From: a virus | Taxonomy: Duplodnaviria > Caudoviricetes | Virus record (IMG/VR): IMGVR_UViG_3300033273_000282 | Coordinates: 1 to 64,000 of that record | Strand: one strand, 5' to 3' | Length of the DNA: 64,000 nucleotides | Part shown: piece by piece, positions 1-46,412 of the stretch | How the letters are laid out: each line of letters opens with the position of its first letter | Numbering within the stretch: position 1 is the first letter of the stretch | The notes under the pieces: generated by a model | Database searches by the model: none | Told to the model about the DNA's origin: nothing | The model's input: the letters and a program-made list of their open reading frames with translations, nothing else | Translations under genes and position numbers: made by a program

Positions 1-2
1 AT

Positions 3-170
3 CACCCAGAGTATAAGACGGATGAAGATGAGATCTTTATCCCACGTAAGTCATTCAAAGAGGATGTAACAGAAGCACTACTCGAAGCAAATCAAAAGTT
101 CTGGAATAGTGGTAATGATGGATATCCCATTGATACCTCATTGGATGATGTTTTTCCTGATGAGAGATAA
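3..170 (+). CDS. 3' end of a hypothetical protein (truncated by window)
   Basis: Frame 3 is open from the window start (HPEYKTDEDEIFIPRKSF...DDVFPDER) to TAA at 168-170. Confidence 0.6.
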   Translation, partial: HPEYKTDEDEIFIPRKSFKEDVTEALLEANQKFWNSGNDGYPIDTSLDDVFPDER

Positions 171-324
171 AATAGTCTTCGCCCTACCATTCATACAAAT
201 CATCATAGCATTAGTAACACTATCACGTTTACCTGAACCACCACCACAATACTTCTGTCAACAATCATCATACAATCTAATCGTATGTAATCCTAACAGT
301 CCAGTTAATCTACAACTACGATGA
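160..324 (+). CDS. small putative membrane protein
   Basis: MRDKIVFALPFIQIIIALVTLSRLPEPPPQYFCQQ...; hydrophobic N-terminus; overlaps both neighbouring genes. Confidence 0.4.
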   Translation: MRDKIVFALPFIQIIIALVTLSRLPEPPPQYFCQQSSYNLIVCNPNSPVNLQLR

Positions 325-917
325 GAGATCTTAAAGAAGTAATATACAAAGGTCATGTAATGCCTGGATATTATATTAATACTAACTCAGAACTATTCAC
401 TACAAGAGTATCTGGTTCAATGGGTATTAATCGACATACTAGAAATAGATTATCATTACATGCTCATTGCTACTCTCAACCATTACGTCAAGTGAAAGGT
501 GTCAAGTATAAGACAGGTAAAATACTTTATCGTCTTGGAACTAGATACACTCACTATGAACAATATAATATCATAGGTAATGAAGTTGGTGTACATGCTC
601 ATCGATTAGTAATGGAAACATATAATCCTTTCCATGATAATATACCTACTGACTTACAACCTTATTGGGATACTCTTCCAACAGTTGTACAAGAATATAT
701 CTACAATGGTATGACTGTAGATCATATTAACCCAGATAAATCAAGACACGATTACAATTATCTCTCTAATCTACAATGGATGACTCATAGAGAGAATCTA
801 ATCAAAAGAGATAACATTATAGGTAACTTTTCCACAGTTGCGGAAAACGTTGTGGAAAAACCTGTGGAAAATAAATGTATTAAAAAACATAGGGTAAGTG
901 TTCTATCATTCGTTTAA
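321..917 (+). CDS. HNH (homing-type) endonuclease
   Basis: HRLVMETY...TVDHINPDKSRHDYNYLSNLQWMTHRENL matches the HNH_3 pattern; N-terminus resembles a NUMOD4-like segment. Confidence 0.85.
   Translation: MRDLKEVIYKGHVMPGYYINTNSELFTTRVSGSMGINRHTRNRLSLHAHCYSQPLRQVKGVKYKTGKILYRLGTRYTHYEQYNIIGNEVGVHAHRLVMETYNPFHDNIPTDLQPYWDTLPTVVQEYIYNGMTVDHINPDKSRHDYNYLSNLQWMTHRENLIKRDNIIGNFSTVAENVVEKPVENKCIKKHRVSVLSFV
828..871. promoter_or_regulatory. cluster of DnaA-box-like 9-mers (TTTTCCACA)
   Basis: TTTTCCACA at 828-836 (+); TGTGGAAAA at 851-859 and 863-871 (-); one-mismatch TGCGGAAAA at 839-847. Confidence 0.7.
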
Positions 918-35048: not shown

Positions 35049-38000
35049 ATGAGTTTTCAGTTAAATTCTGATAGGGAACAACTTAGAGGTGTTGACTCTA
35101 CCATTATTGGTTCTAGTTCTGTCCGTATTAGGGCGGGTCAAGGCACAGAAGAAAGGGAGATCTTTCAAACTAAAGTTGACCCTAGTTCTGGACTGCCTAG
35201 AGTAGGTATCAATAGAACAGGTAGAAGAGTTGACTTTATTAAAGTTACTGCTTCTGGTCAAAATTATACTGATACTCCTACTGTAGAAATTTCAGCTCCA
35301 ACTTTGCCTGGTGGTATTCAGGCAGTTGCTTCTGCTACCACAGACGCTTTTGGTAGAATTACATCGATTGGTATTGACAATCAAGGTGATGGTTATGAAT
35401 TTGCCCCTACTGTAAATATCACTGGCGGTGGTGGTACTGGTGCCGCCGCCGAAGCAGCATTAGATATTATTGAGTTTGAGCTTGACGTTAATGGTGCTAT
35501 CAGAACGTCTACTTCCATCATTTCTGATACAGCAAATATTCTCAACCTGGACATTGATAATCTGGTTACTCCAGATATTAAGATCCGTGCTCCTCATCTA
35601 AAAACATTTATGAATGGTGGTGGAGAAGCATTCCCAACTTCACCAACACCTGTTAATAAAAACGATTATTTCTATGTCCTGAACAATGTTTATCAGGCAC
35701 TTAACAATGGCGTCACTGGTAATATTCCCCCATTCCATGATGATGGTATTGAACTAAATGGTACAGTTCAATTTAAACACATTGGTTATAGGATTGAAGG
35801 AAACCCTGACGTAAAATTCTATGGAGAAGGTGGAAATGCTGGTGTATTCCCACGTTCGATTACTCCACTACTTGGTGATAAGTCAGATAAGATTGCTACT
35901 ACTGAATATGTTCTAAACCTAGCAACAAACGACGTTGGTGGTCGTATCTATGTTTCGGAACAGATTGGTGATGACGACAACGATGGTCGTTCACCAGTTA
36001 ACCCAGTTAGAACAATCAAAAAAGCGTGTCAGTTGGCATGGCAAACTCCTGGTGTTAAGGAGTCGGTTATTGTTGCTGGTGGCAATTATATTGAAGACAA
36101 CCCAATTTCTATTCCACCAGATTGTTCTATTGTTGGTGACAACCTTCGTCTGGTTATTATTAGACCAAACAATCTAAACAAGCACATCTTTAAGTTTGGT
36201 GATAAGAACTACGTTATTGGTGTAACATATCAAGATAAAGTTAACTCTTCTGGTGCTTCTGTCGGCACCTGGGACTTTGCTATGGTCTTCGACGACAAGC
36301 AAAGAATTACATATGATGCCGAAGCTAATGGAGATTTTGGAATTAACTTCCCTGTTGGTCACCAATTCTTTGGACCAGAATCATTTTCGGCACAATTTGC
36401 TTTCAACAGCGGTGGAGCAAGTCTATCTTCTGGTATCCAAATCTTCGGTGTTAGCACTGGTACTCTAGGTAGAATTGGTGCTGTCACATTTGATATTACA
36501 GATACCAACAATCAAAACGTATACCTAGAAGGTAGTGTTGCTGATCTGGTCAAAGAGTCTGGTGCTGGTTTCCAGTCTGCTGAAACATTCCTATTCGGCG
36601 GTACAGGAACTACTTTCTGGAAAGGTACTACAGATTATGATCTCGGAGACGTTGTATTTGCTACAGGTGTTGATAACGAAGGTGGACTAATCGCCAACGT
36701 GTATACTGTTGTTCAAGAAGGTACTTCAGGCATTACTCAACCTGATCACACATCAGGTCAACTTTCTAATGGAACGGTAATCTTTGAATATACTAGAGCT
36801 GCCTACTCAGTCAACTTTAGTGAAATTAACTCAACTCGTGCTGAGGGTGAGGTAGTATTTGTCAACGAAGATCAGGAATCTATTCTACCTATTATTAGAG
36901 TAGATTTCTCACAACAAGGAACTTTTACTGATGGTTTTCAAAGTGATCTTTATGGTAATGCTGAAGACCTTGGTGGTGTTATTTTCTACACCAACCCACT
37001 AGAAGGTGCCAATAACATTCACGACTTCAAAGAAGGTGATGAGATTGAAATTACTGGTATGCCAGTTACAGGATCATACGATCTCACTTTCCTGAATGGC
37101 AAGCAAAGAATTTACAAAGTTCTAGAGGATGCTGATGGTCGTGCTAGAAGATTTGTAATTCCTAAAAAAATTCCAACCTCTTTTAACCTAGAACTAGAAA
37201 ATAACTGGAATCCAGATGATTATGGTGCTGTAGTTAGTGTTAAGTATGCTTCTAAGTCAGTTACCCTATCACTACTAAATTCTCCAAACAAGTTCCCATT
37301 AGCAACACCAGTAGCAAGAAGATATCAAGATGCTTGCCTACAAATCAGAAACAATAGAGACTTCATTGCTGATGAAGTTGTAGGTCGTATTAATGATCAA
37401 TTTAAAAAAGAATACTTCTCTGTATATGATATTGACGCTACAGATCCAGCAGCAGTAGTATTCAAAGTTTTTGCTGGAACGTCTACGTTTGTACACACAT
37501 ATGTGAGTGGTGGTACAGTAACAGTGACTGCTACAGGTAACACTTACAATATTAGTAACTTCGAATATGATAATACTACTGGTGTAGCAACTATTACTAC
37601 ATCTTCCAACCCTGGATTGGTAGAAGATGATACTGTACAACTAGCAGATATTCTAGTTTCTTGTGTCATCAGTGGCGAAGTTGTTGAGAAGACATATCCA
37701 AGTTGGAATATTCCTGTAAGTGATGAAAAGTGTAAGAGAGACGTTCGTCACTTCCTAAATGCTCTAACCCAAGATTTGGAATTTGGTAGCAACTACAATA
37801 TTATCAAAGCTGCTCAAAGATACTTTGATGCTGGACAGATTGAATATGTAGATTATGAAATTATTCAAACTGTTCGTGCTATCGAATATGCTAGAGAACT
37901 AGCAATCTACGCTATGAGAAAGTGGCGTACTGGTGATGGTTCTCCTGGTCAAACAGTGTATGTTCCATCATATGCTTCACAAAATGATCAGTATATCGAT

Positions 38001-41000
38001 CAAACAATTATTGATGATCCTGCTACTCCTGCTTGTGCTAACGTATATAATGCCATCCAAACTCTATCGTATCTCTATGTAGATGTTATAGCAAATAATG
38101 CTTCTGGTACATACCTAGATGCTGCTTATTTGATCTCTAGAAACAAAGATCACATTGCTGACGAAGCGTATCTAAGAACTAAGCAACAGTATCCTTCTCT
38201 TGCTCTCAATAACATCGATGAGCGTAAGTGCCGTAGAGATATTAATTACATCATCACTGGTGTTCTAAGAGACTTGGTTCTTGGTGGTAATACTGGTGCT
38301 GTATCTTATGCCGAGTTGTATTACACAGGCACTGGTCTAACTGGAATCCCTGCTAGTGAACTAGGTGCTACTAGATTTGCTTTCCAGAAAGTAAGAGACT
38401 TGTCTATTCAGGCAATGAGAAACTGGACCACATCTGCTGGTAATCCTGTTTCTCCTCTGTTTACTCTTATTCCTCAGTTTACAGATAACACCATTCTAGT
38501 TGATGCTAACGGAACTCCAACTTTCCAAGGAACTCCAACTGATGCTACCTACGATCCCGCTACTGGTGACTTTGTAATGACGTTTGCTGCTCCTCACGGA
38601 GTAACAACAAACGAATCAATTAGAATTGAAATCGAATCATTCGTATTCAAGTGTGCTATGGACAACTACAGGTCCGAGCACTATCTACCAGAATCTGATC
38701 AAACAGCTGCTACTCAACTTATTCCAGTAGATTCTGTAACTGCTAACACAATCACTATTAATGTTGGTGCTTCTGGTTCTGACGTAACTTTCACACCAAC
38801 TGACGCTACTTACGATCCTTCCACTGGTAACTTCACCATGGAGATCGGAGCCCATACGCTATCACTAGGCGAAGGTATTGTTCTCGATGACAATAGCTTC
38901 ACCTTCAGATGTGCTATGGATGGATATGATTCTCAGAAGACATATCCACGTCCTGGTATCGATCCTTTTGCTGGTAGGTCTATGAAGATCACAGGATCTA
39001 CAGAAACCTCGATTACGGTTAATGTAGGTGCTTCTGGTCCTAACAAAACTTTCCAACCATCCGACGCTACCTATAATCCTGCTACTGGTGACATGGTTGT
39101 CACTGTTGGACAGCATGGATTGGGTGTGGGTCGTAGTGTTGTCCTATCTGATAATAGCTTCACATTTACTTGTGACATGGACAACAACGCCACAGAGAAG
39201 TCGTATCCACGTCCTGGCATCGACCCATTTGCTGGAAAGTCCATTGCTATTACTAGCGTAGGTGTTACAACTCATAGTCCTTCCAACGCTTCCTATGATC
39301 CAGCAGCAGGAACATTACAGTTTACTTTAGTTGGGCATGGATTTAGTAATGGTGACTATATCAAGATCGATGATAATGCTATCACATTTACATGTGATTT
39401 AGATGGTAATGCTTCACAGCATACATATCCGCGCTCTTATGAGTATGCTAGTGGAAGATGGTTTGCTGTTCAAGTAATTGATGCTGACACTTTACAAATC
39501 ACTGGTCTTCCAATCCCAAGAGATCAATCTACACACACTTATGTAAGTTTTGCTCCCAATAGTCTTTCAAGACAAGACGGAACATTTACTATCAATGTAG
39601 GAACTTCTGATGCTGATGTAGAGTTTACTCCTACTAATGCTACTTACGATCCTTCCAACGGAGATCTTGAACTAACTATTGGATCTCATAGTTTGGTGGC
39701 AGGCGAGGGTATTGTCATTGCTGACAATTCCTTGTCCTTCAGCTGTGACATGGATAATCGTGATTCTACCAAGACATATCCACGTCCTGGAATTGATCCT
39801 TATGCTGGCAGATCAATCCCAATTACATCGGTTACTGCTAACACAATTACTGTAAACGCTGGAGTTTCTGGTCCTAACAAGTATTTCACACCAACTGCTG
39901 CTACTTATAGTCCTGTAACTGGTGATATGACTGTCACTGTTGGACAGCATGGTCTAGGTGTTGGACGTAGCGTTGTTCTAGAAGACAACTCCTTCACCTT
40001 CACTTGCCTAACTGATCCTAGTGATCCCAAGACATATCCACGTCCTGGACAGGATCCATTTGCTGGTAAGTCTATTCCCATTACTGCTGTTGGATCTACA
40101 TCTCACGATGTAACTGATGCTCCTTATAATCCTTCTACTGGCATTATTACACTAACAGTTGCTAACCACGGATTCTCCAATGGGGATTACATTAAAGTTG
40201 CTGATGGATCTTTAACATATACATGTGATTTGGATGGCAATACTGTTCAGAAGTCTTATCCACGAGCTGGTTATGACTATCCATCTGGGCGCTGGTTACA
40301 AATCAACGGTGTAACTACAAACACTTTCCAGATCAACGTAGGTCCGTCTTCGTACACTGGCACCCACACCTATGTTGGTGGTACTGCTAGTAATGCTATT
40401 GAACGTCAAGATGGTACATTTACTATTTTTGTTGGTACTTCTTCAGACACTTCGACACATACTTTTGTAAGTGCCACTACTAACGCTATCAAGCACGAAC
40501 CACAATCTACACATTATTTTGAAGGTGCTACTGCTAACTCTGTCAAGCATCTCCCACAATCTACACACACATTTGTTAGAGCAACATCTAACGCCATTAA
40601 GCATGAGCCACAATCCACTCACCAATTCGTCAGTGCTACTACAGGTGCTGTCAAGCATCTACCACAATCGGCACATGATTTCCAACGTGTCATTGGAACA
40701 AATGTAGTTGCTGCTTATCCTTCTGGTGGTAGTCCTGTTTGTGCTGATGTTGAAGCTTCGCTAACAACTTCATTCGCTCTGATTGACGGTATTCTAGAAT
40801 TCGCTGCTGATCCTGATAGTCCTACAGCAATCCAACCTGGAACTACAACAAAAACTACTGGAACATTATTTACTGGAGATAGTATTATCTCCTACCCAAC
40901 CAATGTTCTTAGAGATGCTAATAATAACTATGTTACTATCCGTGGCATTTACGATGATCTACCTATCATCTCAGCATCTCCATATACTCAGAACTCTTCT

Positions 41001-44000
41001 ATTATCTCCAAACTAGGTGGTAGTGGTGCTCTCATTGACGGTTCTAAAGTCAAGAGTCCAAACTGCCCATTCCCTGGTTTGTCTGACGGTAAAGCAACCT
41101 TCCCCAACCAGGGTAAGTCGATGGTTGCTTCGGCATTCACGATTGTTTCTGAACAGAATGGTATTGGTTATAAGGTTATTGAAGATGGTTATACTCAGTT
41201 GGTTTCGGTCTTCTGTATCTTTACTGTTGATGGTATCCTCTGTGAATCTGGTGGTTATGCTTCTGTCACCAACTCTGCTTCTAACTTCGGTACATACGCT
41301 CTAAGATCTGTAGGTATCAGAAGAGAACCATATGAGTTTGACGCTGGATATTCAGATTCTCAAGGATATCAACGTGCTTTCATCGATGTTGTTTCTGAAA
41401 GTATTACTGGTTTCACAGAATTTACCATCGACAACTTAGGTAGAATTCCTCTTGAGCATTATGTTGTCCGTGTTGATGGATATGAATCAGCTGATCTAGA
41501 TGATGAATACTTCATCGATAAAGTAGAAGTTCTTAGAGAGGGTCCTCCTTTCAGAGCAAGAGTTACCTTGACTGATGGTTCTGGCGCTGGAACTATTCAA
41601 TTAAGGAACAAGTCTACTGGTCTCACTGTTTCTCCCGCTTCTCTGTCCCAGTTAAATGTTGCTCTACACAGACCTTCAATTTGTAACTCTTCTTCTCACA
41701 CCTGGGAATTTGTTGGTTCTGGTGTTGACTACAATGCTCTACCAGAAAACGGTGGTATCAAGGTTGATGCCAATGAGCAAGTTTCCGAGAACTATGGTAG
41801 AACATACGTCTCTGGTACTGACGAACTAGGTGACTTTAAAGTTGGCACATTCGCTAAGATTGAGAACAGAACTGGTAACATTACCTTCACGGGTACGGTT
41901 TCGATCTCAGAAGTTGAATTCTTGAAACTGAGAGGTGGCGACGTTGTTGTTACTGGTTTCGATAACAGCAACACCCTTGGTGGTACACTGTCTTCTGACT
42001 CCAAACTACCAACACAGAAAGCAGTTAGAGACTACATCATCAACAACCTTGGTCAGTATTTGAACAAGAACTACTCTACAAACCCAGTTCCTAGAGCACT
42101 TGTTGAACTTACTGACTCTGGTCTAATTTCAGAATCTCAGTTACCTGCTTCCAGTCCAATTGAAGTTTACACTGTAGAAGATCAGGCAGCCAGACTTGCT
42201 CTTGAAGGTATTAGAGCAGGTGACATTGCTATTCAAGATGGTGAAGCATATATTCTAAACACCGATAGTGAGTCGCTATTTGCTGGAATTGCTGTTGATT
42301 CTTCACTACAGTTTACTGCTAATGCTATCTTCACTGGTAGTAATACTGGTGGTAAGATTCAACTTACTGAATATAGACAGGGTGTAGTTAAGAGAATTAC
42401 CATCCCAGATGGTGGTGGTGGTTCTGGATACTCAACTTCCAATCCACCAACTGTTGTCATTACTGATACTGGAACTACACTAGGTCACGTACCTGCTACT
42501 GCTGAAGCAGTTGTTGCTGGTGGTGAAATCGTTGCCATCAACATCACAGAATCTAATGGTTATTTTGGTGGACAAGGATATTCCGATGTTCCAACAATCT
42601 CCTTCACTAATACTGGTGGCGGTTCTGGGGCATCAGCAAACGCTGAGATTGAAAGCAGACTATATGGTAATATTGTTAACGCTATTAAGATTAATGCCAC
42701 TGATACAATTGAGTCTAGTGACGTTCCTTCTGAGACAGTAAACATTATTAGAACCGTTAATACTTCAGGTAGCAATAATGCTAACTGGGTATCTCTAAGT
42801 ACCTCCAGCGTACCTGCTGATAGAATTACAGACGGTCCAATTCCAACTGGTATTCTTGCTAACAACTCTACTGAAGCAAACTCTAATACTGCTCTGTTTG
42901 GTGATCAGTCATATAAGAAAGTTGTTAAGTCTGTTCGTGGTTCTGAAGAGAGATACTTCATTACAACAGCAGATGCTAGTGGTTCTGACTATTTGGTATT
43001 CCTATCAACCAGTCAAAACAACACTGGTCTACTCCTAATCGGTCACCAAGTTACTGGTGTAACTGGTATTCAACCTGGAACGACTATTACACAGATCGCT
43101 GATATCACTGTAGGAACTGACACATTTAAGAGGGTAACACTAAGTGATGGTTTAACAAATGCTATTCCAACAGGAAGTATTGTTGAATTCATCCGACCAC
43201 CATCTCCAATTCTACTAGAATCCACTTCCAGAACTTCTGGATTTATTGAGTCGGTTCAGATTGAAAATGGTGGTCAAGACTTCGCTCAAGACGAGGGCGG
43301 CACCTTTAACTATAACAACGTTGAGGTTTTGGGTGGTGTAGGAACTATCATCCAGAGGATGCAACTCAACTTCAGAATTGAGAGTGGTGTTGTTACTAAC
43401 GTAACTGTTGCTCAAGGTGGTGAGGGATATGAAGCAGACTTCACTATTACTGATATCCCAACAGAAATCGGTACTGAAGGTTCTGGTCTAATTCTACGTG
43501 CTAAGGTCAACACTACCGACAAACAAGAAGGCGACATCGGCATTGACGTTGCCAGAGTAACATCAGACACTCTATCTGATGAAGACTTTGGTACAGTTGG
43601 TGTTGCTAGATTCAAAAAGTCACAGTTTGATGTTGGAGACAATGGTTCGGTAGCACTATTTACTGGTATTGACTCTGGTCTTGATGCTGACTTGCTCGAT
43701 GGTAACCAGAGCACATACTATAGAAACGCTGATAACATTAACGCTGGTAGACTAAAACCTGCTTATCTCTCTGGTGAATATAACATTAGTATTACTCAGC
43801 AATCTGGTAGTACCGCTAAACTAACTGCTAAGACTGGTTCTCTTACATCCGATCTACCTCCAAATGATATCATCGATGGTATCACTGCTGATGTTAGAAG
43901 AAACGATGCTAACCAGTTGTTTGACCCAGCAACTAAAGAAGTTGATGGTGTTATCGTAAGTACAGCAACTGATTACAATACTGTACTTTCCTTTAGAGGT

Positions 44001-46412
44001 GGTGGTTCTGGTACAACTAACCCATATGGTGGTGTTGGCCAAATTGCATTTACTGATGCTAATAATTTCTATGCTAGAGGTTCTTCGGCAAGAGTTGACT
44101 CCGAAGCACAATGGAGTGCTTGGGCAAAAATCTGGACCTCCCAGAATGATTACACTACAGATCCCGTAAATACTGCTGATATTGCTGGTCCTAATGCTTA
44201 TCGCTTGAGAAACAGAACTGGTCTCTGGTATCAGAATGCCAACACGTTTATCTTCGGAGATCTTGGTGATAGAAGACTACCTTCTTACCAGACCGCTAAG
44301 GACTTCAACACTAGATTGAGAGTTCTTGAAGATACTGGTGCTGGTCTAAGATACGATATTTACATTGGTACAGTTACTGCTGCTACTATTACTGCTTTTG
44401 ATAACGCTCCTTTCACCAGCAACCCACCACTAGTCAAACTACTTGACGCTTTTGGTAACGATCCTGGTGAAATTAGAGTTTCTAACATTGAAGTATATAA
44501 TAATGATGGTACTGTTCTTGCTAATAGAACTGCTCCTGGACTTGACTACAGTCAACTATATGCTGTTGTAACTGGTACACTAGAAGTTGGTGGTTCCTTT
44601 GAAACCTCTGGCGGAGATCCAGTAATTGCTCTTGGCGATAATACTGTACAGATCGGTTTTGACGACTACTCAATTTCTTCTTTCGATGGCAATGCTGATG
44701 GTATGCCTGATGGAAACGTAGAAGTTGTACGTCTCGAAAGTGTTGCTGGCGAAGGAAAACTAGTTATTGGTAGAGCAGATGGTGCTCAAGGTAGTGCTAC
44801 CTCACCTGCTATTTGGTTCAGGTCTTCTGATACTATTCCTCAAGATACTACAGGTTACTACACTGTTAGAATGGTTGCCACTGGTGGTGACGCCAACGCA
44901 GGCAGTGGTGCTCTTGATGTTCAAGTAGCAACTCCAAATTCATTTACCGTTGGCAGCAACATTATCTGGAACGAAGGTAACGTAGTATTCAACACTACTA
45001 ATACAGCATCTACTACAGATCAAAATGGTGATATTACTATTAAGTCTGCTGTCTTTAGAGATGAGAATGGAGACTTTGCTGCCAACGTAATTACAGCAGA
45101 CCTTACTGGTACTGCTTCTGGTAACCTAGACATTGACGGTGGCACTTTACAGGGTGATCTGTATATTGGCACAACTGGTTCTCCTAATGATCTATATGTT
45201 AGAGGTAACACTCTAATGGATGGAACAGCAAAGGTAGATGGTGACTTCACTGTTGACTACGATGGCAACCTAATCTTTGCTGATGTATCGGAATCAAAAG
45301 TTGGCATCGGAACAGCATCGTTCCCATCCGATGAACCCACTGCTAAGTTAGTAGTTCAGGGTGCTGCTACATCGTCTACTTCTTTCCTCGTTACAGGTGG
45401 TGGTGCCAATATTGGTTCTGCCCTGAAACTACAACACCAAGGAGCAACAGGTAGTACTGGCACTGATGGTACATGGAATATTGCCTTTGGTGCTAATGAG
45501 TTAGACTTTGGAGTTGGACAAAACAGCGTTGGTGCTGCTGGTGGTATGTACCTCTATCACAAAGATGGTAATACAACTAACGTTCCTTTGATTCTCAAAA
45601 CTCAACATGTTGTTATTCCATTCCGTCTTGGTGTTGGTAACAACAGTCCTGGATTCGGTCTAGATGTATCAGATAATGCTCGTATCGACACCTCTCTCAC
45701 AATTGGTAAGACCAATAACAATAATGGAGCACCAATTTACTTCCTTGGCGCTACTGGTGGATCTTACACTGATGGTTATCTAAGCAACTTCCGTGTTGGC
45801 AATCAAATTAGTGGTGATGACATTTTTGAAATTACTGCTGGTGATCACGGTGATGCCAATAACGAATGGAAGGCAACTCCTGCTCTTGCTATTCAAGGTA
45901 GCAATAATAGAGTTGCTATTAACACAACTGCTTTTGGTGGCACAGATCCTGAAGAAGTTGATGAATTCGACAACCCAATCCAGAGAGTCTATACACTCAA
46001 CATTCAGGGTGATGTTAACTTCAATGGTCAACTATTCAAGGACAACGCTGAGTTTGTTACTTCTCGTTGGACTGAAGCCCCTAACGAAATTGATATTTAC
46101 AGACCTTCTAAGGTTGGTATCAACTTCACAACTGATAAGAACCCAGGTTACGCTCTAGATGTTGAAGGTTCTGTAGATATCAACACATCCACTGTAGGTG
46201 TCGATGGCGACACTACCAACGCTAACGTATTGAGAGCAAATGGAGATCCACAATGGTTGGATACATATGGTGTTATCAAGGCAAACAGAAACAGCATTAC
46301 TGAAAATATCACTATTCCAAATAATATTAATGCCATGTCTGTTGGTCCAATTGAAGTTGGTAGTGGTAACACGATCACTGTTGACGACGGTGGTGTTTGG
46401 ACTATCTTATAA
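35049..46412 (+). CDS. giant tail fibre protein (3787 aa)
   Basis: IYVSEQIGDDDNDGRSP...TIKKAC; internal TPTDATYDP modules; DADLLDG; C-terminal NAMSVGPIEV...VWTIL fibre ending. Confidence 0.85.
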   Translation: MSFQLNSDREQLRGVDSTIIGSSSVRIRAGQGTEEREIFQTKVDPSSGLPRVGINRTGRRVDFIKVTASGQNYTDTPTVEISAPTLPGGIQAVASATTDAFGRITSIGIDNQGDGYEFAPTVNITGGGGTGAAAEAALDIIEFELDVNGAIRTSTSIISDTANILNLDIDNLVTPDIKIRAPHLKTFMNGGGEAFPTSPTPVNKNDYFYVLNNVYQALNNGVTGNIPPFHDDGIELNGTVQFKHIGYRIEGNPDVKFYGEGGNAGVFPRSITPLLGDKSDKIATTEYVLNLATNDVGGRIYVSEQIGDDDNDGRSPVNPVRTIKKACQLAWQTPGVKESVIVAGGNYIEDNPISIPPDCSIVGDNLRLVIIRPNNLNKHIFKFGDKNYVIGVTYQDKVNSSGASVGTWDFAMVFDDKQRITYDAEANGDFGINFPVGHQFFGPESFSAQFAFNSGGASLSSGIQIFGVSTGTLGRIGAVTFDITDTNNQNVYLEGSVADLVKESGAGFQSAETFLFGGTGTTFWKGTTDYDLGDVVFATGVDNEGGLIANVYTVVQEGTSGITQPDHTSGQLSNGTVIFEYTRAAYSVNFSEINSTRAEGEVVFVNEDQESILPIIRVDFSQQGTFTDGFQSDLYGNAEDLGGVIFYTNPLEGANNIHDFKEGDEIEITGMPVTGSYDLTFLNGKQRIYKVLEDADGRARRFVIPKKIPTSFNLELENNWNPDDYGAVVSVKYASKSVTLSLLNSPNKFPLATPVARRYQDACLQIRNNRDFIADEVVGRINDQFKKEYFSVYDIDATDPAAVVFKVFAGTSTFVHTYVSGGTVTVTATGNTYNISNFEYDNTTGVATITTSSNPGLVEDDTVQLADILVSCVISGEVVEKTYPSWNIPVSDEKCKRDVRHFLNALTQDLEFGSNYNIIKAAQRYFDAGQIEYVDYEIIQTVRAIEYARELAIYAMRKWRTGDGSPGQTVYVPSYASQNDQYIDQTIIDDPATPACANVYNAIQTLSYLYVDVIANNASGTYLDAAYLISRNKDHIADEAYLRTKQQYPSLALNNIDERKCRRDINYIITGVLRDLVLGGNTGAVSYAELYYTGTGLTGIPASELGATRFAFQKVRDLSIQAMRNWTTSAGNPVSPLFTLIPQFTDNTILVDANGTPTFQGTPTDATYDPATGDFVMTFAAPHGVTTNESIRIEIESFVFKCAMDNYRSEHYLPESDQTAATQLIPVDSVTANTITINVGASGSDVTFTPTDATYDPSTGNFTMEIGAHTLSLGEGIVLDDNSFTFRCAMDGYDSQKTYPRPGIDPFAGRSMKITGSTETSITVNVGASGPNKTFQPSDATYNPATGDMVVTVGQHGLGVGRSVVLSDNSFTFTCDMDNNATEKSYPRPGIDPFAGKSIAITSVGVTTHSPSNASYDPAAGTLQFTLVGHGFSNGDYIKIDDNAITFTCDLDGNASQHTYPRSYEYASGRWFAVQVIDADTLQITGLPIPRDQSTHTYVSFAPNSLSRQDGTFTINVGTSDADVEFTPTNATYDPSNGDLELTIGSHSLVAGEGIVIADNSLSFSCDMDNRDSTKTYPRPGIDPYAGRSIPITSVTANTITVNAGVSGPNKYFTPTAATYSPVTGDMTVTVGQHGLGVGRSVVLEDNSFTFTCLTDPSDPKTYPRPGQDPFAGKSIPITAVGSTSHDVTDAPYNPSTGIITLTVANHGFSNGDYIKVADGSLTYTCDLDGNTVQKSYPRAGYDYPSGRWLQINGVTTNTFQINVGPSSYTGTHTYVGGTASNAIERQDGTFTIFVGTSSDTSTHTFVSATTNAIKHEPQSTHYFEGATANSVKHLPQSTHTFVRATSNAIKHEPQSTHQFVSATTGAVKHLPQSAHDFQRVIGTNVVAAYPSGGSPVCADVEASLTTSFALIDGILEFAADPDSPTAIQPGTTTKTTGTLFTGDSIISYPTNVLRDANNNYVTIRGIYDDLPIISASPYTQNSSIISKLGGSGALIDGSKVKSPNCPFPGLSDGKATFPNQGKSMVASAFTIVSEQNGIGYKVIEDGYTQLVSVFCIFTVDGILCESGGYASVTNSASNFGTYALRSVGIRREPYEFDAGYSDSQGYQRAFIDVVSESITGFTEFTIDNLGRIPLEHYVVRVDGYESADLDDEYFIDKVEVLREGPPFRARVTLTDGSGAGTIQLRNKSTGLTVSPASLSQLNVALHRPSICNSSSHTWEFVGSGVDYNALPENGGIKVDANEQVSENYGRTYVSGTDELGDFKVGTFAKIENRTGNITFTGTVSISEVEFLKLRGGDVVVTGFDNSNTLGGTLSSDSKLPTQKAVRDYIINNLGQYLNKNYSTNPVPRALVELTDSGLISESQLPASSPIEVYTVEDQAARLALEGIRAGDIAIQDGEAYILNTDSESLFAGIAVDSSLQFTANAIFTGSNTGGKIQLTEYRQGVVKRITIPDGGGGSGYSTSNPPTVVITDTGTTLGHVPATAEAVVAGGEIVAINITESNGYFGGQGYSDVPTISFTNTGGGSGASANAEIESRLYGNIVNAIKINATDTIESSDVPSETVNIIRTVNTSGSNNANWVSLSTSSVPADRITDGPIPTGILANNSTEANSNTALFGDQSYKKVVKSVRGSEERYFITTADASGSDYLVFLSTSQNNTGLLLIGHQVTGVTGIQPGTTITQIADITVGTDTFKRVTLSDGLTNAIPTGSIVEFIRPPSPILLESTSRTSGFIESVQIENGGQDFAQDEGGTFNYNNVEVLGGVGTIIQRMQLNFRIESGVVTNVTVAQGGEGYEADFTITDIPTEIGTEGSGLILRAKVNTTDKQEGDIGIDVARVTSDTLSDEDFGTVGVARFKKSQFDVGDNGSVALFTGIDSGLDADLLDGNQSTYYRNADNINAGRLKPAYLSGEYNISITQQSGSTAKLTAKTGSLTSDLPPNDIIDGITADVRRNDANQLFDPATKEVDGVIVSTATDYNTVLSFRGGGSGTTNPYGGVGQIAFTDANNFYARGSSARVDSEAQWSAWAKIWTSQNDYTTDPVNTADIAGPNAYRLRNRTGLWYQNANTFIFGDLGDRRLPSYQTAKDFNTRLRVLEDTGAGLRYDIYIGTVTAATITAFDNAPFTSNPPLVKLLDAFGNDPGEIRVSNIEVYNNDGTVLANRTAPGLDYSQLYAVVTGTLEVGGSFETSGGDPVIALGDNTVQIGFDDYSISSFDGNADGMPDGNVEVVRLESVAGEGKLVIGRADGAQGSATSPAIWFRSSDTIPQDTTGYYTVRMVATGGDANAGSGALDVQVATPNSFTVGSNIIWNEGNVVFNTTNTASTTDQNGDITIKSAVFRDENGDFAANVITADLTGTASGNLDIDGGTLQGDLYIGTTGSPNDLYVRGNTLMDGTAKVDGDFTVDYDGNLIFADVSESKVGIGTASFPSDEPTAKLVVQGAATSSTSFLVTGGGANIGSALKLQHQGATGSTGTDGTWNIAFGANELDFGVGQNSVGAAGGMYLYHKDGNTTNVPLILKTQHVVIPFRLGVGNNSPGFGLDVSDNARIDTSLTIGKTNNNNGAPIYFLGATGGSYTDGYLSNFRVGNQISGDDIFEITAGDHGDANNEWKATPALAIQGSNNRVAINTTAFGGTDPEEVDEFDNPIQRVYTLNIQGDVNFNGQLFKDNAEFVTSRWTEAPNEIDIYRPSKVGINFTTDKNPGYALDVEGSVDINTSTVGVDGDTTNANVLRANGDPQWLDTYGVIKANRNSITENITIPNNINAMSVGPIEVGSGNTITVDDGGVWTIL
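38532..40451 (+). repeat. seven ~75-100 aa modules arranged A-(B-C-D)x2 within the fibre
   Basis: Module starts at 38532, 38793, 39054, 39276, 39627, 39888 and 40107; shared TYDPxTG...FTCxxD...TYPRPGxDPxxG. Confidence 0.85.
40452..40720 (+). repeat. 54-bp (18-aa) coding tandem repeat, 4 full copies plus 1 degenerate
   Basis: STHxFxxATxxxxKH(E/L)PQ units start at 40452, 40506, 40560, 40614 and 40668. Confidence 0.9.

What the first reader, a model, noticed from the sequence alone, without database searches (positions are those of the whole stretch)
38532..40720. Russian-doll architecture in the 3787-aa fibre: five open domains closed by five stacked strands in reverse order
Seen: modules run A, B, C[D], B', C'[D']. 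D and D' are complete and end in their own THTYV...N strand. A, B, C, B' and C' lack that strand, and exactly five such strands follow as the 54-bp tandem repeat. Their alternation fits last-in-first-out closure: strands 1 and 3 (STHTFVxATxNAIKHEPQ) would close C' and C, strands 2 and 4 (STHxFxxATxxxVKHLPQ) would close B' and B, and divergent strand 5 would close the divergent A. Inference: the fibre is extended by recursive self-insertion rather than tandem duplication. This gives an out-and-back arm whose length can change only by paired gain or loss of an ~830-bp opening block and a 108-bp closing block. I know of no description of such a length-tuning mechanism.
Basis: partly seen in the sequence, partly recalled or inferred. 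Interest (0 to 1): 0.85.

Follow-up and report, generated by a model that had tools for sequence, protein, structure and literature searches.

The report
Self-nested beta-barrels in cyanophage fibre
A giant baseplate/fibre protein of a T4-like marine cyanophage most likely builds a stiff side arm from seven copies of one small beta-barrel domain, inserted one inside another six deep, so that five missing last strands follow at the end in reverse order. Such self-nesting is known from cyanobacterial RNA polymerase, but I found no description of it in a phage fibre.

Summary
Residues 1162-1891 of the 3787-aa ORF (35049-46412, +) hold seven ~70-aa cores. D and D' carry their own His strand, and five 18-aa His strands follow in tandem.

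- **Predicted structure:** two AlphaFold2 models (pLDDT 94.6 and 90.9, pTM 0.87 and 0.76) place the strands last-in-first-out. Single-barrel PDB domains align to A+s5, B+s4, C+s3 and B'+s2, weakly to C'+s1, and to D and D' as contiguous stretches.
- **Homologs:** core and strand counts track each other (r = 0.965; 4 to 28 cores). 36 of 124 proteins parse perfectly as balanced brackets, in eight different unit topologies. Two proteins 91% identical differ by one whole closed unit.
- **Fold:** a six-stranded barrel like the E1 FCCH domain or the phi92 endosialidase barrel (Z about 8).
the 834-bp and 108-bp differences from 4-module relatives lie 14 aa apart and sum to one closed 314-aa unit. One insertion therefore suffices. 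Tandem arrays of closed units also exist in the family.
- **Precedent:** recursive nesting is already described for the Si3 insertion of cyanobacterial RNA polymerase.

This scan had already noted the same architecture on other cyanophage DNA. Everything structural here is prediction; the oligomeric state and function are untested.

The parts
35049..46412 (+). ORF of the 3787-aa giant virion protein (PHROG 5342, 'tail fiber protein') in the baseplate/fibre gene cluster
38532..38783 (+). Module A (aa 1162-1245): core plus 'TITINVG' strand, open. Outermost barrel, closed by s5 in the model
   Evidence: VIA model ranges 1-5..738-739
38784..39041 (+). Module B (aa 1246-1331): open, closed by s4 in the model
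   Evidence: VIA ranges 88-91..718-720
39042..39272 (+). Module C core (aa 1332-1408): interrupted by D before its sixth strand, closed by s3 in the model
   Evidence: VIA ranges 178..699-700
39273..39575 (+). Module D (aa 1409-1509): complete contiguous barrel with its own His strand (from aa 1494), inserted in C
   Evidence: VIA range 252..355; E1 FCCH Z 8.0, phi92 endosialidase barrel Z 7.8
39576..39620 (+). Resumed strand of C (aa 1510-1524, 'DGTFTINVG' type)
   Evidence: The equivalent strand t' co-varies most with C'
39621..39878 (+). Module B' (aa 1525-1610): open, closed by s2 in both models
   Evidence: VIA ranges 1..315 in model 1 and 367-369..682-684 in model 2
39879..40103 (+). Module C' core (aa 1611-1685): interrupted by D', closed by s1
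   Evidence: By exclusion, plus one weak VIA row 457..659, Z 2.4. MI slightly highest for s1 with C'
40104..40412 (+). Module D' (aa 1686-1788): complete contiguous barrel with its own His strand (from aa 1771). Innermost level, depth 6
   Evidence: VIA ranges 160..266 and 529..633
40413..40451 (+). Resumed strand of C' (aa 1789-1801, 'GTFTIFVG')
40452..40505 (+). Closing strand s1 (aa 1802-1819, ends HEPQ), assigned to C'
40506..40559 (+). Closing strand s2 (aa 1820-1837, ends HLPQ), assigned to B'
40560..40613 (+). Closing strand s3 (aa 1838-1855, ends HEPQ), assigned to C
40614..40667 (+). Closing strand s4 (aa 1856-1873, ends HLPQ), assigned to B
40668..40721 (+). Closing strand s5 (aa 1874-1891, divergent), assigned to A

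Best explanation
**What it is.** Residues 1162-1891 form a single-chain, recursively nested array of seven copies of one small six-stranded beta-barrel. Each barrel needs a ~70-aa core, a 'TxTVNVG' strand and a last 18-aa 'xxHxF...' strand.

**How the chain runs.** Further copies sit between these pieces. The chain runs outwards through A, B, C (with D budding from C), B' and C' (with D' budding from C'). It then runs back, giving one closing strand to each open barrel in last-in-first-out order: s1 to C', s2 to B', s3 to C, s4 to B, s5 to A.

**Consequences.**
- The start and end of the 730-aa array lie together at barrel A. The array is therefore a side arm plugged into the main chain.
- Neighbouring barrels are joined by two chain segments, not one, which should make the arm stiff (inferred).
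- Folding must finish from the tip (D') back to the base (inferred).
- Evolution proceeds by inserting or deleting whole closed units at permissive junctions, here a 314-aa B(C(D)) unit between C's sixth strand and its closing strand. This keeps the brackets balanced.

**Function.** Most likely the arm projects domains away from the axis of a baseplate-attached fibre, to set reach or contacts with the host surface. This is not shown.
For: **Predicted structure.**
- Model of aa 1523-1840 (B' to s2): mean pLDDT 94.6, pTM 0.87.
- Model of aa 1155-1900: mean pLDDT 90.9, pTM 0.76.
- In searches of 48,161 PDB chains, barrel domains of ~65-85 residues align to:
  - D and D' as contiguous stretches (252..355 and 529..633);
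  - stretches that begin at a module start and end inside the predicted strand: 1-5..738-739 (A+s5), 88-91..718-720 (B+s4), 178..699-700 (C+s3), 367-369..682-684 (B'+s2);
  - weakly, 457..659 (C'+s1, Z 2.4).
- An independently made BFVD model of a Synechococcus phage ACG-2014d protein fragment superposes on the three-domain nest: TM 0.86, rmsd 3.2 A, 40% identity.

**Comparative.**
- S-RIM32, S-H9-2, Sf-CH11 and Syn1 each have A, B, C[D] and exactly three closing strands in the order HEPQ, HLPQ, A-type.
- P0062 closes B(C(D)) before opening a second B(C(D)) inside A. P0023 is the same protein (91% identity) with one complete A(B(C(D))) unit of ~422 aa inserted before the strand that closes C2.
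- Over 124 proteins, core and strand counts correlate at r = 0.965 (4 to 28 cores). The strand count equals the core count in 50 proteins and exceeds it by one in 44.
- 36 proteins parse with no error under a strict stack grammar, in eight distinct unit topologies including split cores.
- About 170 contiguous B-C-D-sC-sB units keep a length of 313-322 aa.

**Covariation.** MI-APC is highest for the predicted partner in all four tests (s1-C', s2-B', sD'-D', t'-C'), but only weakly (Neff 34).
Against: - No experimental structure exists, and I had no model coordinates. Pairings are read from the first and last aligned residues of structural alignments with Z 5-8, a range where matches show only a common fold.
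- The C'-s1 pairing rests on exclusion plus one Z 2.4 row.
- The models are monomers, whereas fibres are usually trimers.
- In the alignment behind the large model, only 7 rows cover the outer modules.
- Automated parsing fails for half of the homologs: 63 of 124 have more than 2 defects. Hand inspection traced this to undetected divergent halves and strand-first modules in the proteins I looked at, not in all.
- The co-ancestry test was ambiguous. B with its strand gave rho 0.30; C with its strand gave no correlation.
- No module is hypervariable, so nothing points to a receptor-binding tip.
Confidence: 0.8

Rival explanations
1. The same count rule holds, but closure is in trans. In a trimeric fibre each closing strand completes the barrel of a neighbouring chain (strand exchange), knitting the subunits together.
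For: Phage fibres are commonly trimers with interwoven chains (general knowledge; T4 gp37 tip). The count and order data fit cis and trans closure equally. Only monomers were modelled.
Against: The monomer models are very confident and compact without partners: pLDDT 91-95, pTM 0.76-0.87. D-type barrels close with their own adjacent strand. An independent BFVD monomer model agrees.
Confidence: 0.1
2. The five 18-aa His repeats fold on their own as a beta-solenoid or metal-binding needle, as in the T4 gp37 tip. The open modules are complete five-strand domains that need no sixth strand.
For: The repeats have a regular 18-aa period and conserved His. They lie in tandem.
Against: - Both models place each strand in a different barrel.
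- Single strands follow D-type modules directly.
- Strand number follows open-module number through eight topologies.
- There is no HxH motif, only one His in xxHxF and one in KHxPQ.
Confidence: 0.05
3. Assembly artefact or chance. The repeated modules were mis-joined in assembly and the apparent balance is coincidental.
For: The array is repetitive, and most homologs come from metagenome contigs.
Against: - The modules are only 48-70% identical to each other, too diverged to collapse in assembly.
- The same 7-module layout occurs in six other proteins at 58-80% identity from separate contigs.
- Complete genomes of isolates show the balanced 4-module form.
- The chance of random order being well nested is about 1e-5.
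Confidence: 0.01

Closest known systems
Si3 insertion of cyanobacterial RNA polymerase beta' (RpoC2): eight sandwich-barrel hybrid motifs. SBHM-2 to -5 are built from distant chain segments, forming a 150 A arm (PMC10895346). Cited as a six-level recursive insertion architecture in a 2026 survey of domain insertions (PMC13114784).
   Same: One small beta domain is inserted into copies of itself. Outer copies are discontinuous and are finished by segments that come later in the chain. The result is an elongated out-and-back arm whose two ends meet at the base. Nesting depth is similar: six here, seven in homolog P0023 by hand parse.
   Different: - The fold differs. SBHM was not among the top 50 structural matches; the top hits are FCCH, EF-Tu domain 2 and FNR-type six-stranded barrels.
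- The host is a virion fibre protein, not an enzyme's trigger loop.
- Here the closing pieces are uniform 18-aa strands that pile up as a tandem DNA repeat.
- The family shows many different bracket topologies across hundreds of proteins.
- Si3 is solved experimentally; this is prediction only.
Split domains of RTX adhesins (AhLap, MpIBP) that project ligand-binding domains away from the adhesin axis (PMC12077191)
   Same: A beta domain is split by an inserted domain whose N and C termini are adjacent, so the insert buds sideways. Nesting reaches about three levels (beta-roll, then vWFA, then an insert). The protein is a giant surface or attachment protein.
   Different: The inserts are unrelated ligand-binding folds, not copies of the host domain. 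The split domains are Ig-like. There is no run of closing strands. Ligand binding is shown there and unknown here.
E1 ubiquitin-activating enzyme FCCH domain (Pfam PF16190) and the beta-barrel domain of phage phi92 endosialidase (PDB 4hiz)
   Same: These are the best structural matches to a single module: 4p22_B Z 8.0, rmsd 2.5 A, 75 residues; 4hiz_A Z 7.8-8.1, rmsd 2.3-2.4 A, 82-83 residues. Several homologs carry precomputed PF16190 hits. From my own knowledge, both are themselves domains inserted into a host domain.
   Different: They are single-level insertions. The window protein does not reach PF16190 even at E 0.1. Z about 8 is at the level the tool calls common for unrelated models.
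Distal tip of the T4 long tail fibre gp37 (own knowledge: Bartual et al. 2010, trimeric 'knitted' needle with iron bound by HxH motifs)
   Same: A phage fibre in which the chain runs out to a tip and back, with short His-containing repeats.
   Different: gp37 is an interwoven trimer with HxH motifs. Here each repeat has a single His in xxHxF and is predicted to be the last strand of a separate monomeric barrel.

Membership tests
Recursively nested domain-insertion architecture (kind, not homologous family; type case RNAP Si3) | Domains built from sequence-distant segments, with whole domains between the segments | tested here: met
   In predicted models only: barrel alignments span 1-5..738-739, 88-91..718-720, 178..699-700 and 367-369..682-684 with only 65-85 residues aligned
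Recursively nested domain-insertion architecture (kind, not homologous family; type case RNAP Si3) | Host and insert are copies of the same domain, repeated over several levels | tested here: met
   Seven cores match one HMM at 68-101 bits. Stack depth is 6
RNAP Si3 / SBHM (HABAS) domain family | Sandwich-barrel hybrid motif fold | tested here: not met
   No SBHM or RNA polymerase chain among the top 50 rows of three structural searches. Top hits are FCCH, FNR and EF-Tu-type barrels
E1_FCCH (Pfam PF16190) | Sequence match to the Pfam model above its cut-off | tested here: not met
   Not listed for P0001 or aa 1150-1900 at E up to 0.1. Precomputed hits exist for some homologs
E1_FCCH (Pfam PF16190) | Same fold as the FCCH barrel | tested here: inconclusive
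   Z 7.6-8.0, rmsd 2.5-2.8 A over 73-77 residues, 15-17% identity. The tool notes that best Z of 7-8 is typical even without a true relative
T4 gp37-type metal-binding needle | HxH motifs in the repeats | tested here: not met
   The repeats read xxHx[FY] and KHxPQ, with no HxH
T4 gp37-type metal-binding needle | Interwoven homotrimer | not testable with these tools
   Only monomer prediction was available
PHROG 5342 tail fiber protein (cyanomyovirus giant fibre/structural protein) | Full-length profile match and conserved gene position | tested here: met
   E = 0, 4308 bits. The gene lies after a 171-aa virion protein, as in S-RIM32, S-H9-2, Syn1 and Sf-CH11, downstream of gp6-, gp7- and gp8-like genes

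The most novel reading that the evidence does not exclude
A family of ocean cyanophage virion proteins evolves by a bracket grammar. Closed units of one small barrel are inserted at three permissive junctions of other copies: inside the core loop, before the sixth strand, and before the last strand. This gives single-chain branched arms nested at least seven deep, more than the six levels reported as the most complex case in a 2026 survey of 2.7 million domains. The phages would use gain and loss of closed units to retune the reach and geometry of baseplate fibres. Neither the architecture nor this mode of fibre evolution has been described for any virus.
Probability: 0.45. Interest if true: 0.75.

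Novelty: new variant of a known kind. Interest (0 to 1): 0.62.

Why it matters
**For phage biology.** Fibres are usually thought of as trimeric rods lengthened by tandem repeats. A stiff branched arm made from a single chain by self-nesting would be a different building principle. It would also bring a different evolutionary rule: only balanced insertions survive. That rule constrains how host-recognition organelles of the ocean's most abundant myoviruses can change.

**For annotation.** It explains why these giant 'structural proteins' resist domain annotation. Linear domain callers see five incomplete domains plus an unexplained 54-bp repeat.

**For protein science.**
- It provides a second and much more varied natural example of recursive domain insertion beside RNA polymerase Si3.
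- There are hundreds of natural topologies for studying the folding order of deeply discontinuous domains.
- The fragment aa 1523-1840 is a ready candidate for a modular, insertion-tolerant scaffold.

Tried and rejected
- **HMM detection of the strands.** An HMM for the 18-aa strand missed adjacent copies, and after iteration it even lost the window's own strands. I replaced it with the regex xxHx[FYW]x outside the cores, plus separate HMMs for the N and C halves of the core.
- **Extended grammar.** Allowing strand-first modules and lower thresholds did not raise the number of perfect parses: 35-38 of 124.
- **Co-ancestry test.** I asked whether a homolog's B or C resembles the window's outer or inner copy in step with its strand. 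B gave rho 0.30 and C gave none, and the rows are not independent. I treat it as uninformative.
- **Covariation.** MI-APC points the right way in 4 of 4 tests, but margins are small at Neff 34.
- **Whole-model fold searches.** Foldseek against PDB gave only tandem FN3 arrays at TM 0.12-0.16. AlphaFold DB clusters gave nothing above TM 0.23.
- **Sequencing runs.** No run held more than 24% of the stretch's words. The contigs laid on it came from relatives and were fragmentary, and the 'joints' reflect paralogous modules. They give no population evidence either way. One contig (X3, record 23) runs colinear through all five strands.
- **Divergent isolates.** The S-WAM2 and S-RIM8 proteins were too divergent for the detectors.
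- **Literature.** Six searches found no description of nested barrels in cyanophage fibres.
- **Receptor-binding tip.** A hypervariable tip was considered and not supported: modules have similar mean pairwise identity, 0.64-0.68.
Full report
**1. What is in the sequence.**
ORF 35049..46412 (+) encodes 3787 aa. It matches PHROG 5342, 'tail fiber protein', at E = 0. It lies downstream of gp6-like, giant gp7-like and gp8-like baseplate genes and two further giant virion proteins. Its nearest database relatives are 'structural protein' or 'tail fiber protein' genes of Kyanoviridae: S-RIM32, S-H9-2, Syn1, S-RIM44 and Sf-CH11.

The finding's coordinates correspond to aa 1162-1891. A module HMM finds seven cores there (68-101 bits) and none in any other ORF of the window. 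Read as protein, the order is:
- A, then B;
- C core, with a complete D carrying its own His strand, followed by the resumed 'DGTFTINVG' strand of C;
- B';
- C' core, with a complete D' carrying its own His strand, followed by the resumed strand of C';
- five 18-aa units, s1 to s5 (nt 40452-40721).

Tandem Repeats Finder reports the first three units as a 54-bp repeat. At DNA level the units are about 63% identical per column. s1/s3 end in HEPQ and s2/s4 end in HLPQ (89% and 67% identical).

**2. Predicted structure.**
I first folded aa 1523-1840. Under the hypothesis this stretch is a self-contained closed unit, B'(C'(D')) plus s1 and s2. The alignment held 64 homologous contiguous units. The result was mean pLDDT 94.6 and pTM 0.87.

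I then folded aa 1155-1900. That alignment held six full 7-module orthologs, four 4-module orthologs and the inner units, placed by MAFFT without my intervention. The result was mean pLDDT 90.9 and pTM 0.76. A pTM that high for seven domains suggests fixed inter-domain geometry.

I had no coordinates, so I used the ranges reported by an exhaustive structural alignment against 48,161 PDB chains. Single barrels of ~65-85 aligned residues matched the following stretches (model residue = protein residue minus 1154):

| Model range | Reading |
|---|---|
| 252..355 | D, contiguous |
| 529..633 | D', contiguous |
| 367-369..682-684 | B' start to s2 end |
| 178..699-700 | C start to s3 end |
| 88-91..718-720 | B start to s4 end |
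| 1-5..738-739 | A start to s5 end |

The matching PDB barrels were the E1 FCCH domain, the phi92 endosialidase barrel, FNR-type FAD-binding barrels and EF-Tu domain 2. The small model showed the same pattern: 160..266 for D' and 1..315 for B'+s2. C'+s1 appeared only once and weakly (457..659, Z 2.4).

A BFVD model of a Synechococcus phage ACG-2014d protein fragment, made by others, superposes on the three-domain nest at TM 0.86 and rmsd 3.2 A. The topology is therefore not a product of my alignment.

**3. Comparative test.**
*Isolates.* S-RIM32, S-H9-2, Sf-CH11 and Syn1 all have A, B, C[D] and exactly three closing strands in the order HEPQ, HLPQ, A-type. S-RIM44 and ACG-2014j show the same pattern.

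*Metagenomic homologs give other topologies, and all those I read by eye are balanced.*
- P0062 is A(B(C(D)) B(C(D))), with 7 cores and 7 strands.
- P0023 is the same protein (91% identical) with one complete A(B(C(D))) unit, including its three strands, inserted just before the strand that closes C2. It has 11 cores and 11 strands and reaches depth 7.
- P0078-P0081 (58% identical to the window protein) keep the window's own 5-deep layout.
- P0076 and P0060 have 12/12 and 13/13, including strands whose linkers read GGN instead of LPQ.
- P0055 shows a third insertion site, inside the core between 'FTC' and 'YPR'.

*Automated parse.* I used HMMs for the N and C halves of the core and a regex for the strand.
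- Core and strand counts correlate at r = 0.965 over 124 proteins (4 to 28 cores).
- Counts are equal in 50 proteins. The strand count is one higher in 44. In the cases I inspected, the extra strand belongs to a divergent strand-first module after the array.
- 36 proteins satisfy a strict stack grammar with no error, and 61 have at most two defects.
- The perfect parses comprise eight distinct unit topologies. The probability that a random order is well nested is 1.5e-3 for the 4-module unit and about 1e-5 for the window's arrangement.

Many rows are relatives, so these numbers describe consistency. They are not independent trials. The independent evidence is the variety of topologies.

**4. 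How length changes.**
Global alignment of the window protein with its closest 4-module relatives gives the same two gaps each time: 278 aa (1517-1794) and 36 aa (1809-1844). The relatives were P0119 (86% identity), S-RIM32 and S-H9-2.

However, they are separated by only 14 residues and sum to 314 aa. That is the size of one closed B(C(D)) unit, a block found contiguously about 170 times at 313-322 aa. The split into two gaps is the usual breakpoint ambiguity when a unit is inserted next to a homologous junction. One contiguous insertion explains the difference, as in P0023 against P0062.

B/B', C/C' and D/D' are only 63, 70 and 48% identical, and the 7-module form is shared at 58% identity. 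The insertion is therefore old. Which copy is 'original' cannot be told: P0119's B, D and sB resemble the outer copies, while its C and sC resemble the inner ones, which suggests later recombination. The family also lengthens by plain tandem repetition of closed units, with seven in P0002.

**5. Mechanism.**
*Shown (as prediction plus comparison).* Each barrel is completed by a strand that comes after everything nested in it.

*Inferred.*
- The array's two ends meet at A, so the array is a lateral arm of five barrels with D and D' as buds.
- Double connections between neighbouring barrels stiffen the arm.
- Folding completes from tip to base.
- Only balanced indels are tolerated.

*Function.* By analogy with RTX-adhesin split domains that project ligand-binding domains (PMC12077191), and with the Si3 arm (PMC10895346), the arm probably positions domains away from the fibre axis near the baseplate. 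No module is hypervariable, so I cannot name a binding tip.

*Conserved residues.* Each core keeps an invariant Cys and Asp ('FTCxxD') and 'YPR'. Each closing strand keeps an invariant His. A metal site that locks strand to core is possible but untested.

**6. Comparison with what is known, and novelty.**
Recursive self-insertion is established for Si3 of cyanobacterial RNA polymerase. A 2026 survey cites it as a six-level nested case (PMC13114784). The fold here is different, and the window protein does not reach Pfam PF16190.

I found no paper describing this architecture in phage virion proteins (six searches). In cellular AlphaFold clusters nothing resembles the nest. The unit profile finds 653 cluster representatives among 1.84 billion (468 at E up to 1e-10), so the family is restricted.

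Notes of this scan show the same architecture was already flagged and followed up on several other cyanophage genomes. One of those notes describes a 4,286-residue protein, the same length as my P0076.

**Verdict.** This is a real feature and the structural reading is very probably right. I class it as a new variant of a known kind, pending an experimental structure.

Noticed in passing
window 37494-37727 (aa 816-893 of the same ORF): A divergent eighth copy of the module in which the His strand ('TFVHTYVSGG') comes before the core (15.8 bits) instead of after it. It looks like a circular permutation of the barrel. The same strand-first module follows the arrays in Sf-CH11, Syn1, P0060, P0076 and P0103, and it accounts for many '+1 strand' counts.
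   Followed up: partly
homologs P0055, P0057, P0036; also P0082, P0099, P0101, P0115: A third insertion site. The D-type core is split between 'FTC..' and 'YPR' by ~400 aa that hold further, themselves split, modules. P0082, P0099, P0101 and P0115 still parse as perfectly balanced.
   Followed up: partly
window about 37700-38500 and 40720-40850 (aa ~890-1150 and ~1895-1925): The array is flanked on both sides by helical segments with a recurring 'C..D/V....L..(D)L' motif (for example 'CKRDVRHFLNAL', 'CRRDINYIITGV', and 'CADVEASLTTSF' after the array). The whole 730-aa arm may therefore itself be an insert in a helical repeat domain, one doll further out.
   Followed up: no
window 40452-40721 and every core: Each core has one invariant Cys and Asp ('FTCxxD'). 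Each closing strand has an invariant His (xxHxF), and most have a second His (KHxPQ). A lone invariant Cys per domain in a virion protein suggests a metal site or a specific packing contact between core and closing strand.
   Followed up: no
homologs P0019, P0037, P0039, P0042, P0046, P0054 and others: Several giant homologs carry precomputed hits to Pfam PF00502. From memory this is the phycobilisome protein family; the tool gives only the accession. That would be odd in a virion protein and may stem from the helical repeat regions.
   Followed up: no
I did not check it. My barrel HMMs find nothing there.
   Followed up: no
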